From: an uncultured Acidobacteriota bacterium
GTDB taxonomy: Bacteria > Acidobacteriota > Polarisedimenticolia > J045
Length of the DNA: 64,000 bases
Assembly: GCA_963702545.1 (NCBI GenBank)
Contig: CAVPDB010000009.1
Location: forward strand, 199,743-263,742
Reading direction: 5' to 3'
Shown here piece after piece: positions 20,152 to 23,100 of this stretch (position 1 is its first letter; every line of letters starts with the position of its first letter). Position numbers and translations under genes: made by a program. Below the pieces are notes generated by a model. The model was not told the DNA's origin. It ran no database searches and saw only the letters and a program-made list of their open reading frames with translations.

Positions 20152-23100
20152 ATGGAGATGCCGGTGAAACACCGTTCACTGAGAGACATCAAGCGTTCGT
20201 CGTGGGTGAGGCGCCTGGCGCTTGCCGTGCCGGCGCTGGGGGCGCTGCTCACCGTGCTGGTCGTTGCGACCGTCGTTCAGGCCGCGCCGGCGCAGCAGGC
20301 CATACCGCCGATTGTGGTCGAGGTGACTACTACTGCGGATACCGATGGCACCTGCGACCCGTATGGATGTACGCTGCGCCAGGCGATCAACACGGTCAAC
20401 GCCAACCTGAGCCTCTCGCAGAGCACCATTCGGTTCAACATAGCTGGCGCGGAGCCTCAGGTCATACTCGTCTCCTCGCCGCTGCCGCGCATCGACTACC
20501 CGGTGATCATCTAGGGCGCCAATCTGGCGCCGGGTGGTGGTCCGGTCGTCTTGGATGGCCAGAACAGTGTCCCCGCCGCCGATGGCCTGGTGCTGGACGC
20601 GTATTACGGCGAGGTCTATTCGCTGACCATCCGCAACTTCGGCGGGGCCGGCATCTACGTGAACCCGTTCAAGTCCGGCATCGTGTTGGCGGGGAACACT
20701 ATCGAGAACAACCAGGGAAATGGGATTTATATCGACAGTGGCGGTGATGGTGGGGGCATCGAAGTCCTGGAAAACGTCATCCGTAACAACGGGGGCAGCG
20801 GGATCTTCATCGATTCGAGTTTCGGCAACCTGGTCTACGGGAATCAGATCTACGGCAACGCCCATGACGGCGTGACCATCGTAGGCGGCGAGCGTCTTAC
20901 CACATCCAAATCACCCAGAACGATATCCACGACAACGGCGACCAGCCGATCGATTTGAACGACGACGGAGCGTCCGATAACGATCTGGAGGATCCGGACA
21001 CAGGCGCCAACGCGACGCAGAACTATCCGGTGCTGGTGCGAGCACGGCCGATTTCTGGCGGTGCTGTCGTGGAGGGGTATCTCAACAGCATTTCAGGCGA
21101 CGAATATGGTATCGAGTTGTTTGGTGGCGCCAAGTGTGGCCAGGGATCGCAGACGTTCTTGCCAAGCATCCCCTACACGATCAGTCTGCCGACCGGCACT
21201 GGCTTTTTCAGTGTGACCGTCACGCAGCCAGTGGCGCTCGGGACGGCCATCCGGTCGACGGCGACGAGAGGGCCGTTTATTGGAAGTAGTGAGACCTCGG
21301 AGATGTCCGACTGCGTCATCGTGGGGCCGGGCAACGATTCATGGCCGAAGGCGCTGCGGATGAACGTGCCGGCGAGCGCGGCGGCCGTCAGTGCGGCGGA
21401 GGCCGAGGAGCTGGTCGAGGCCGCCGGAGTCACCGAGGTGGACGCCACGACCGGCGTCGTGACGTTGACGCAGTACATCGACTCGCTCGGGCAGTCGCGC
21501 TGGTACAAGTTCAAGATCCGGCCCAACAGCCAGCTCATCGTGACGCTGACGGGGCTGCCGGAGGCCGAATTATGATCTGACCCTGTACAAGGACATTGAG
21601 CAGGAGTATCAGAAGCTCGCCGATCCGCAGGACGCAAGAGATTTGACGCGATTGCAGGCGAGTCGGCGCCGTCGGCATTTGCGCCATCGGCGTTTGCGCC
21701 GTCGGCGTTTGCGCCATCGGCGTTTGCGCCGTCGGCGTTTGCGCCGTCGGCGTTTGCCCCGTCGGCGTTTGCGCCGTCGGCGTTTGCGCCATCGGCGTTT
21801 GCGCCGTCGGCGTTTGCGCCGTCGGCCTACAGCCCTGACTCGTACAGCGCGTCGTCGTTCAGCCCCTGGGCGTTCGACCAGGGCGCTTTCGATCCGAACA
21901 GTTTCAGATCCCAGCGCCTACAATCCGGCGACGTTCGATCCCAAGGCGTTCACCGGTGCGCAGACGCGCAGCCTCCTCGGCGTCTCGGCGTTCGAAGGGA
22001 CGTCGGAGGAGGGGTTGATCATGAACACGTGGCTGAACGACGGCGACTTCTACGTCCGCGTGCGCGGGCGGGACGGTGCGTTCAGCCTGGATGCGCCGTT
22101 CGCCCTGACGGTACAACTGGAGCCGGGGCCCTGTGCGAATGCGTTCGACACGCCGCTGCCGGCGACGTCGCTGGCGCCGCAGGCCGGCGGGTTCAAGAGC
22201 ATCATCCTGGTGGACAGCGCACGCCTGAAGGCGGCGTACGGTCAGGCGCAGTTCAATCAATTGCTGGTCAAGTTGGATGCGCTGAAGCTGAGGCCCGAGG
22301 TGCAGGGCACGATCGTCGACGTGAGCACGGATGCGCGCGTGGCCGCGGCCAACCAGCGGGCCGATCAATACTATGTCTGTCCCTACGGCAAGAACGTCGT
22401 GGCGGAGTCGATCAAAGCCATCGTGGATGCGTATAGCGGGGTGAACCCGCTGGAATACGTGGTCATCGTGGGCGGGGACAACAGCATCCCCTTCTTCCGC
22501 TACCCGGACAACGCGCTGTTGGGACCCGAGTCGGACTACTTTCCGCCGGTGCTGGACTTCACGCTCATCGCAGGCGGGGCTGCGGCTGAACTACGTCCTC
22601 AGCCAGGATGGCTACGGCGCATCTGAGTTTCTATCTCTCAATGGCACGGAGTTTCCGGTGCCCGACCTGGCGGTGGGGCGGCTGGTGGAGACGCCTGGGG
22701 ACATTCTGAAGCAGCTCGATGCCTACTTCCTGACGACCAACGGGGTGGCACCGGCGCCGCAGGCCGCACTGATAACCGGCTACGACTTCATGGAGGACGT
22801 CGCCCAGGCGGTCAAGGGTGAGCTCGCCACGGCACTGGGGGCGGGCAAGACGGTCGATACACTGATCACGCCGTATGACGGTGTCACCGCTGGACCCGCA
22901 GTCGTGGACTGCGTTCCAGTTGGATGAGAAGCTGCAGAGCCGGCGCTACGATCTGGTGTTCCTGGCGGGGCATTTTGCGGCGGACAATGCGCTGGCGGCG
23001 GACTTCCCGACGGCACTGCTGCCGACCGACATTCTGTCGTCGACGGTGGATATGAGGAATGCCCTCTTCTATAGCATGGGCTGCCATTCCGGGTACAACG

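What the first reader, a model, noticed from the sequence alone, without database searches (positions are those of the whole stretch)
21580..21960. 15-bp (APSAF)n repeat inserted inside a PPC domain, open in all three frames and flanked by compensating frame changes (copy B)
The PPC domain is split. Its first half ends at NYDLTLYKDI. Its second half (GVSAFEGTSEEGLIMNTWLNDGDFYVRVRG..PFALTVQLE) resumes about 100 codons later.

Between them lie about 10 copies of GCGCCGTCGGCGTTT. All three frames are stop-free: APSAF, RRLRR and VCAVG.

The ORF as sequenced (21643..22626) reads the repeat as an Arg-rich RRLRR tract that stays in frame with both flanks. However, an aromatic residue every fifth position (APSAF..APSAY SPDSY SASSF SPWAF DQGAF DPNSF | DPSAY NPATF DPKAF) continues across an apparent extra 'a' at 21906. 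That argues the APSAF frame is ancestral.

Either two compensating errors flank the repeat, or this copy really translates the repeat in a different frame.
Basis: partly seen in the sequence, partly recalled or inferred. Interest (0 to 1): 0.6.

Follow-up and report, generated by a model that had tools for sequence, protein, structure and literature searches.

The report
Frameshifted pentapeptide repeat, assembly artefact
The 15-bp repeat is real and encodes a conserved (Ala-Pro-Ser-Ala-Phe)-type loop found in hundreds of Chloroflexota surface proteins, but its Arg-rich reading here comes from two of many single-base indels in a poorly polished, probably chimeric stretch of the assembly.

Summary
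A 15-bp array (21666-21826, 10.7 copies) sits inside a PPC-like beta-sandwich, and ORF 21643-22626 reads it as RRLRR.

The true frame is APSAF:
- All 120 intact homologs examined (Chloroflexota "CSLREA domain" proteins; the closest is 82% identical) lack RRLRR or VCAVG tracts. 117-119 of them carry an xPxx[F/Y] pentapeptide tract at exactly this site.
- Read in the APSAF frame, copy B gives 20 units and a 126-residue spacing, which is the family norm.
- All five nucleotide variants inside the array fall at codon position 3 of that frame.

The "compensating" shifts are a missing base at about 21650-21660 and an extra A at 21906. They are two of at least 15 frame breaks plus two in-frame stops in copy B. 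Copy A is equally broken.

The paralogs diverged under purifying selection (dN/dS 0.15), so the indels are most likely consensus errors rather than decay.

The genes lie in a 65% GC terminal segment of a 73% GC genome whose phylum lacks this family, which suggests a chimeric contig.

One by-product is of modest interest. The tract is an undescribed module conserved in length at about 20 units, maintained at the peptide level, and predicted disordered.

The parts
21666..21826 (+). 15-bp tandem array, 10.7 copies. In the true frame (codons starting at 21666) it gives 10 x APSAF followed by the start of APSAY.
   Evidence: The five variant bases among units (GCA, CCA x3, GCC) all sit at codon position 3 of the APSAF frame.
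21660..21905 (+). Stretch shifted by one base relative to both flanks. It covers E-S, 10 x APSAF, then APSAY SPDSY SASSF SPWAF DQGAF DPNSF. As sequenced it is read as RRLRR...
   Evidence: The stitched reading gives 20 pentapeptide units and a 126-aa spacing, as in the family.
21650..21660 (+). Site of the upstream 1-nt deficit, most parsimoniously a G missing from GCG(G)AG. With that base the reading is DLTRLQAESAPSAF, against DLTRLGAESAPQAF in P0001.
   Evidence: The exact position within this interval is ambiguous in the alignment.
21906..21906 (+). Extra A (TTC A GAT) that returns the reading to the flanking frame.
21907..21951 (+). Last three degenerate units, DPSAY NPATF DPKAF, in the frame of the downstream flank.
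   Evidence: The homologous residues in P0001 are NAYNPSTFDPKSF.
21459..21597 (+). First half of the PPC-like beta-sandwich (VTLTQYIDSLGQSRWYKFKIRPNSQLIVTLTGLPEA / NYDLTLYKDI). It contains a further frame break at about 21560-21567.
   Evidence: These are strands 334-379 of the homolog model.
21952..22131 (+). Second half of the PPC-like beta-sandwich (TGAQTRSLLGVSAFEGTSEEGLIMNTWLNDGDFYVRVRGRDGAFSLDAPFALTVQLEPGPC).
   Evidence: These are strands 507-556 of the homolog model, with pLDDT 81-95.
20152..24919 (+). Copy B of the giant secreted protein: signal peptide, CSLREA-like N-terminus, beta-helix, PPC-like domain with tract, clan-CD-like His/Cys domain, Ig-like domains. It is broken by at least 15 frame switches and by in-frame stops at 20512 and 24917. 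Homology with copy A continues to about 25040.
13899..14051 (+). Paralogous array in copy A: (APSSF)n, 10.1 copies, with an internal extra g near 13962.
12975..12985 (.). Breakpoint. A 71-74% GC host-type sequence runs directly into the middle of copy A. From here GC is about 65% to the end of the contig.
   Evidence: Relatives are lacking.

Best explanation
The array encodes ten APSAF units. Together with one leading and nine degenerate units they form a 20-unit xPxx[F/Y] pentapeptide tract of about 100 residues. The tract is inserted between the NYDLxLYKD strand and the GVSAF strand of a PPC-like beta-sandwich. This sandwich lies in a large secreted Chloroflexota protein with a CSLREA N-terminus, a beta-helix, a clan-CD-like His/Cys domain and Ig-like domains.

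In this assembly a missing base at about 21650-21660 and an extra A at 21906 put 246 nt, including the whole array, one base out of register. The 15-bp unit has no stop in any frame, so the shifted reading stays open and gives the spurious RRLRR ORF.

These two indels are part of a dense series of mostly 1-bp indels in both paralogs. The series most likely consists of uncorrected consensus errors of a long-read metagenome assembly. The errors are aggravated here because the segment is duplicated and is probably a low-coverage foreign piece mis-joined to the contig.

Shown: the true frame, the positions of the shifts, the density of breaks, and purifying selection on the stitched frame. Inferred: that the indels are errors rather than mutations, and that the contig is chimeric.
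For: Frame:
- 735 homologs match the stitched copy B, and the closest (P0001, intact, 1628 aa) is 82% identical.
- None of the 120 listed homologs has an RRLRR or VCAVG tract. 117 have at least 4 xPxx[FY] units at the same site.
- The orthologous DNA (L004) has a 15-bp x 10.4 APQAF array at the same position.
- Copy B stitched in the APSAF frame gives 20 units and a 126-aa spacing. In the family, 123 aa occurs 42 times and 126 aa 26 times among 99 scored proteins.
- All 5 within-array variants in B lie at codon position 3 of the APSAF frame.
- Across 75 genome loci, 2211 of 2987 within-array mismatches are at position 3.

Errors rather than decay:
- A and B differ by about 70 indels over 4.3 kb, 48 of them single bases.
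- The frame breaks that B shows against the intact ortholog also appear as A-B differences, so they look private to B (my reading).
- dN/dS between A and B in the stitched frame is 0.15 (dS 0.29, dN 0.044). In the two wrong frames it is 1.7 and 3.2.
- Frame switches without a stop run at 1.65/kb at 12.9-25 kb, 0.56/kb at 25-64 kb, 0.25/kb genome-wide and about 0.09/kb in control genomes.
- The MAG has 24 contigs but only 81.5% completeness.

Foreign segment:
- GC is 65% against 73% from about 12,980 to the contig end.
- The family is absent from 40 relatives and from 200 genomes of the same phylum.
- Nearly all of the best 80 family loci in species genomes are Chloroflexota.
Against: - No same-species contig was found elsewhere. 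The error status of each indel is therefore inferred, not observed.
- Only 14 of 48 single-base indels adjoin an identical base, so they are not the homopolymer-type errors typical of polished nanopore consensus.
- Copy B also carries two nonsense substitutions, at 20512 and 24917.
- A long housekeeping gene elsewhere in the genome, secA, is intact, so the extreme break density is local.
Confidence: 0.8

Rival explanations
1. Both paralogs are genuine, recently inactivated pseudogenes in a horizontally acquired island. On this view the indels and the two nonsense codons are real mutations.
For: - There are two in-frame stops by substitution, at 20512 and 24917.
- The indels are mostly outside homopolymers.
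- secA elsewhere in the genome is intact.
- Copy A is truncated at its 5' end.
Against: - dN/dS of 0.15 over 1254 codons shows both copies were under purifying selection for nearly all of their divergence.
- Roughly 35 private 1-bp indels per copy would, under neutral decay, come with far more nonsynonymous change than dN = 0.044. This step is inference and assumes the usual excess of substitutions over indels in bacterial pseudogenes.
- The indels are almost all +/-1 bp in both directions, without the larger deletions typical of decay.
- Neighbouring unrelated genes at 25-64 kb, and the genome as a whole, also show excess frame switches.
Confidence: 0.15
2. Copy B really expresses the repeat in the Arg-rich frame, either as a new frame created by compensating mutations or through programmed frameshifting.
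For: The RRLRR frame is open and in frame with both immediate flanks.
Against: - The gene cannot be translated as sequenced. A further break lies about 80 nt upstream at about 21560-21567, and more than 12 lie downstream.
- None of the 120 homologs uses that frame.
- Within-array variants are nonsynonymous in that frame (R/H/P) but silent in the APSAF frame.
- An open frame is expected for any 15-bp unit that lacks stops.
Confidence: 0.01

Closest known systems
Chloroflexota 'CSLREA domain-containing' / parallel beta-helix giant secreted proteins (for example P0001 from JGI metagenome 3300037308, and proteins of Ca. Leptofilum, Ca. Promineifilaceae, Ardenticatenaceae, Caldilineaceae and Ca. 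Amarolinea MAGs)
   Same: Copy B shares the same domain order. Stitched residues 400-1100 are 82% identical to P0001. The insertion point is identical, between NYDLxLYKD and GVSAF. The tract has the same 20 units, and the invariant His and Cys of the downstream domain are present.
   Different: The unit here is APSAF (APSSF in copy A, APQAF in P0001), whereas most of the family has SPDAF, SPSAF or SPEAF. Only the first 10 units are homogenised at the DNA level. The copies here are frame-broken and sit in a genome of another phylum.
PPC / bacterial pre-peptidase C-terminal domain (Pfam PF04151; the collagen-binding domains of ColG have this fold)
   Same: The strand pattern matches, with the DxDLxLY-like motif and the G.YYv.V.g motif. 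The HMM aligns end to end once the insert is removed. Foldseek matches the homolog model to the ColG s3a-s3b collagen-binding domains, 5iku, at E=1.1e-4.
   Different: The score is below Pfam's gathering threshold. A loop of about 100 residues is inserted between two strands. The domain lies N-terminal to the putative peptidase domain, not at the C-terminus of a pre-peptidase.
Pentapeptide-repeat proteins (Pfam PF00805, A(D/N)LXX, right-handed quadrilateral beta-helix)
   Same: Both have a period of five residues with a large hydrophobic residue (F/L) once per unit. Twenty units would equal five four-sided coils.
   Different: The register differs: D/S-A-F-S/A-P against A-D/N-L-X-X. There is no PF00805 hit at E<=0.1. 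AlphaFold2 gives pLDDT 32-44 over the tract and no beta-helix. NCBIfam gives only a sub-threshold low-complexity match to penta_MxKDx.

Membership tests
Chloroflexota CSLREA / beta-helix / PPC-like / His-Cys giant secreted protein family | Full-length sequence homology with the same domain order | tested here: met
   735 hits; P0001 scores 1270 bits at 82% identity over residues 400-1100 of stitched copy B; the beta-helix (PF13229) and Big_1 domains fall in the expected places.
Chloroflexota CSLREA / beta-helix / PPC-like / His-Cys giant secreted protein family | xPxx[F/Y] pentapeptide tract of about 20 units between NYDLxLYKD and GVSAF | tested here: met
   Copy B has 20 units and a 126-aa spacing once read in the APSAF frame.
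Chloroflexota CSLREA / beta-helix / PPC-like / His-Cys giant secreted protein family | CSLREA N-terminal motif (TIGR04214) | tested here: inconclusive
   P0084 scores 31.4 bits (cut-off 25) and P0001 scores 17.2 bits, below cut-off. Copy B has ...DPYGCTLRQAINTV... by eye but was not scored against the HMM.
PPC domain (PF04151) | HMM match above the gathering score | tested here: not met
   21.8 bits against a cut-off of 25.9, and only after the insert is excised; no hit with the insert present or on either half alone.
PPC domain (PF04151) | PPC-type beta-sandwich fold | tested here: inconclusive
   the homolog model has a confident sandwich built from both halves. Foldseek hits the ColG collagen-binding domains (5iku, E=1.1e-4), but in a whole-chain, multi-domain comparison with low TM-scores.
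Pentapeptide repeat (PF00805) | A(D/N)LXX consensus and HMM match | tested here: not met
   no hit at E<=0.1. The residue register differs.
Pentapeptide repeat (PF00805) | Quadrilateral beta-helix fold | tested here: not met
   the tract (residues 392-499 of P0084) has pLDDT below 50 and no beta structure is predicted.
Clan CD cysteine peptidase (C25 gingipain-like) | Conserved His...Cys dyad in a caspase-like fold | tested here: inconclusive
   H830 and C867 are invariant in 58 sequences; copy B has LAGHF and MGCHSG. Foldseek matches separase 5u1t_A with prob 1.0 over 222 columns. PF01364 is precomputed for some homologs; copy B has no PF01364 hit.
Programmed ribosomal frameshift / dual-coding repeat | Frame change conserved in relatives, with an otherwise intact gene | tested here: not met
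   homologs are collinear in one frame; copy B has many other breaks.

The most novel reading that the evidence does not exclude
The tract itself may be an undescribed functional module. It is an xPxx[F/Y] pentapeptide loop of about 100 residues, usually 20 units, inserted in a PPC-like beta-sandwich next to a clan-CD-like His/Cys domain.

It is conserved across Chloroflexota and maintained by selection on the peptide: 74% of within-array nucleotide differences are at third codon positions. Its length is held nearly constant even where unit sequences are homogenised differently (APSAF, APSSF, APQAF).

It could act as a length-calibrated tether or spacer, or as a regulatory or cleavable loop for the adjacent putative peptidase.
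Probability: 0.45. Interest if true: 0.45.

Novelty: new member of a known kind. Interest (0 to 1): 0.22.

Why it matters
For this window, the result removes a false lead. The Arg-rich ORF and the "compensating frame changes" are products of indels in an error-rich, probably chimeric contig end. They are not evidence of frame switching or dual coding. Gene calls in window 13-64 kb, and the ends of several other contigs of this MAG, should be treated with caution.

The useful by-product is a family-level observation. Hundreds of Chloroflexota surface proteins, many from activated-sludge filaments such as Ca. Leptofilum, Promineifilaceae and Amarolinea, carry a strictly placed, length-conserved aromatic/proline pentapeptide tract. 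No domain model covers it and no literature on it was found. It is a reasonable target for structural and functional work.

Tried and rejected
- Same-species contigs elsewhere: a degenerate DNA pattern in metagenome contigs found nothing. A protein-guided scan found only relatives at 54% identity or less.
- rpoB and rpoC as yardsticks for frameshift density: rpoB is cut by a contig end and rpoC was not found. secA was usable and is intact.
- The GC3-based Viterbi chose the VCAVG frame for the array. Composition cannot decide the frame in this unit, so I relied on homologs and synonymous variation instead.
- PDB sequence search with the family profile hit only the N-terminal beta-helix part, 9cdu "Rhombotarget A" and mannuronan epimerases.
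- Whole-model Foldseek was dominated by multi-domain noise.
- Literature searches for CSLREA and for the repeat peptides found nothing relevant.
- The earlier-findings look-up by sequence found nothing.
- The pentapeptide-repeat beta-helix idea was rejected.
- The search for the metallophosphoesterase flank (11-13 kb) in congeners was empty, so the exact edge of the host-type sequence is not fixed.

Full report
**1. What is in the sequence**

Tandem Repeats Finder finds a 15-bp array at 21666-21826 with 10.7 copies, 93% matches and unit GCGCCGTCGGCGTTT. A sister array lies at 13899-14051.

Translating the three forward frames confirms that the array itself is stop-free in all of them, reading APSAF, RRLRR-type and VCAVG-type. 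The whole 21580-21960 interval is not stop-free. The APSAF frame has a stop near 21597, and the VCAVG frame has stops near 21640 and 21835.

ORF 21643..22626 exists and reads the array as an Arg-rich tract in frame with NYDLTLYKDI...DLTRLQA and with DPSAYNPATFDPKAF....

Cutting the DNA into 15-mers from 21666 gives 10 x APSAF, then APSAY SPDSY SASSF SPWAF DQGAF DPNSF. A single extra A follows at 21906, and then come DPSAY NPATF DPKAF.

**2. The gene around it**

Two 90%-identical paralogs of a very large gene lie head to tail. Copy A spans about 12,980-19,800 and copy B spans 20,152 to about 25,040.

A global DNA alignment of A and B shows about 70 gaps over 4.3 kb. Of these, 48 are single bases, and they go in both directions.

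A frame-tracking Viterbi and hand inspection show that copy B needs at least 15 frame switches. It also has in-frame stops at 20512 and 24917.

One break lies only about 80 nt upstream of the finding, at about 21560-21567, between LTGLPEA and NYDL.

**3. Which frame is real**

A conceptual read-through of copy B finds 735 homologs. The best is an intact 1628-aa protein (P0001) that is 82% identical over the queried 701 residues. All named hits are Chloroflexota "CSLREA domain-containing", beta-helix or Ig-like proteins.

All seven sequences inspected carry a pentapeptide tract at exactly this point. For example, P0001 reads ...NYDLTLYKDIAAEYEKLANPQDTTDLTRLGAES(APQAF)10 APSSY SPDAF GASSF SPWAF EQDAF...DPKSFTGAQTRSLIGVSAFEGT....

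Across the 120 listed homologs:
- None has an RRLRR- or VCAVG-type tract.
- 117 have at least 4 consecutive xPxx[FY] units.
- 112 have the tract directly after the NYDLxLYKD motif.

The distance between the two conserved flanking motifs clusters tightly. It is 123 aa in 42 proteins and 126 aa in 26, out of 99 scored. Copy B read in the APSAF frame gives 126 aa and exactly 20 units.

Inside B's array, the five bases that differ among units (GCA, CCA three times, GCC) all fall at the third codon position of the APSAF frame. In the ORF as sequenced the same bases change Arg to His or Pro.

The ortholog's DNA (locus L004) has a 15-bp x 10.4 array at the same place, and its variants are likewise silent.

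Aligning B with that DNA places a 1-nt deficit at about 21650-21660. The most parsimonious site is a G missing from GCG(G)AG, which restores DLTRLQAESAPSAF. The same alignment places a 1-nt excess at 21906-21908.

**4. Errors or decay?**

Two scans of metagenome contigs found no same-species sequence. The argument is therefore indirect.

(a) Codon-wise comparison of A and B in the stitched frame gives dS 0.29, dN 0.044 and dN/dS 0.15 over 1254 codons. The two wrong frames give 1.7 and 3.2. Both copies were thus under purifying selection for essentially all of their divergence. That is hard to reconcile with roughly 35 private frame-destroying indels in each.

(b) The indels are almost all +/-1 bp, without the larger deletions typical of decay.

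(c) A simple metric counts same-strand frame switches without a stop:

| Region | Switches per kb |
|---|---|
| Window 12.9-25 kb | 1.65 |
| Window 25-64 kb | 0.56 |
| Window 1-12.9 kb | 0.31 |
| Whole genome | 0.25 |
| 151 kb from four related genomes | about 0.09 |
| Illumina contig L004 | 0 |

The assembly as a whole is somewhat indel-rich. This fits a completeness of 81.5% for only 24 contigs. The region of interest is much worse than the rest.

Three points count against the error reading. Only 14 of 48 single-base indels touch an identical base. Two stops are substitutions. secA elsewhere is intact. I put errors at about 0.8 and real pseudogenes at about 0.15.

**5. Where the segment comes from**

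GC falls from 72-75% to about 65% at window position about 12-13 kb and stays there for the last 55 kb or so of contig C9. At about 12,980 a host-type ORF runs straight into the middle of copy A's beta-helix region.

Window 1-9 kb is 95% identical to a same-genus genome. Window 29-37 kb has no counterpart in congeners.

The protein family is absent from 40 relatives and from 200 genomes sampled across the genome's own phylum. Nearly all of the best 80 loci, out of 372 in species-representative genomes, are Chloroflexota.

Other contigs also end in segments of aberrant GC: C17 at 47%, C10 at 53% and C12 at 60%. A chimeric join with DNA of a lower-coverage Chloroflexota organism is the simplest reading. 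Horizontal transfer is not excluded.

**6. What the tract is**

With the insert removed, Pfam PPC (PF04151) aligns end to end at E=3.4e-4 and 21.8 bits, which is below threshold.

An AlphaFold2 model of the homolog P0084, built with a 58-sequence alignment, has mean pLDDT 82. It forms one beta-sandwich from strands 334-379 and 507-556. Residues 392-499, which are the tract, have pLDDT 32-44.

Foldseek on this model finds the ColG collagen-binding (PPC-fold) domains and, for the downstream domain, separase. A His and a Cys are invariant in that downstream domain.

The tract is not a classical pentapeptide-repeat beta-helix. There is no PF00805 hit, the residue register differs, and no helix is predicted.

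Across 75 genome loci, 2211 of 2987 within-array differences lie at codon position 3. The modal length is 19 xPxx[FY] units plus the leading L.AEF unit. The peptide and its length are therefore under selection and are not merely a product of recent slippage.

In the clade of this window, the first ten units are homogenised at the DNA level to different sequences (APSAF, APSSF, APQAF), while the count of ten is kept.

My best guess is that the tract is a flexible loop of calibrated length that projects from the sandwich. It may act as a spacer or tether, or as a regulatory or cleavable loop for the adjacent putative peptidase. This is inference, held with low confidence.

I found no literature on it. 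No Pfam or NCBIfam model covers it.

**7. Verdict**

The repeat and its position are real and conserved. The Arg-rich frame and the "compensating" shifts are artefacts of an indel-ridden, probably chimeric stretch of assembly.

Interest in the finding as posed is low. The family-wide, length-conserved tract is a modest lead in its own right.

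Noticed in passing
window 12,975-12,985 and onward to 64,000 (C9:212,700-267,410): GC drops abruptly from about 73% to about 65%, in the middle of a gene, and stays low to the contig end. The low-GC part has no counterpart in same-genus genomes. It carries a Chloroflexota-type gene family absent from 200 genomes of the host's phylum. 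A chimeric contig join is likely; the alternative is a large foreign island.
   Followed up: partly
genome contigs C17:180,001-196,561; C10:150,001-172,670; C12:260,001-265,670; C16:1-20,000: Other contig ends also have aberrant GC (47%, 53-65%, 60% and 65-67%, against a genome value near 73%). This suggests further mis-joins or islands in this MAG.
   Followed up: no
whole genome G000: Same-strand frame switches without a stop run at about 0.25/kb (997 events), against about 0.09/kb in 151 kb of four related genomes. Completeness is 81.5% with only 24 contigs. Together these suggest a moderately indel-rich long-read assembly.
   Followed up: partly
window 20512-20514 and 24917-24919: Copy B has in-frame stop codons where the family reads sense codons: ..PVII*GANLA.. 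and ..PPGA*TLRV.., against PPGAYMLTV in copy A and PPGTYTLQV in P0001. These are substitutions, not indels.
   Followed up: partly
window 17250-19780: TRF reports an array of 9.8 near-identical modules with a 258-bp period (93% matches). The modules are Ig-like, lie at the 3' end of copy A, and are absent from copy B. They are also frame-broken.
   Followed up: no
window about 9378 and 10,638-10,720: The pirin-like gene and the DUF362-like gene in the high-GC part are fused into one 925-aa ORF (8126-10903), with apparent frame switches. Frameshifts are therefore not confined to the low-GC segment.
   Followed up: no
homologs P0075 and P0083: Two family members interleave xPDAF units with ARGAR[ST]PDA[LI] decapeptide-like units, for example SPDALARGARSPDALARGARSPESF. 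This is a distinct variant of the tract.
   Followed up: no
homolog P0007: One Chloroflexota homolog has a greatly expanded tract, with a spacing of about 360 aa. SPDAF runs are interrupted by SEDEAAPDAF units, so the length constraint is not absolute.
   Followed up: no
loci L092, L094, L096, L098: A few family members sit in MAGs labelled Verrucomicrobiales, Acidimicrobiales, Pseudomonadales or 'bacterium'. As with this window, these may be binning or assembly contamination by Chloroflexota DNA.
   Followed up: no
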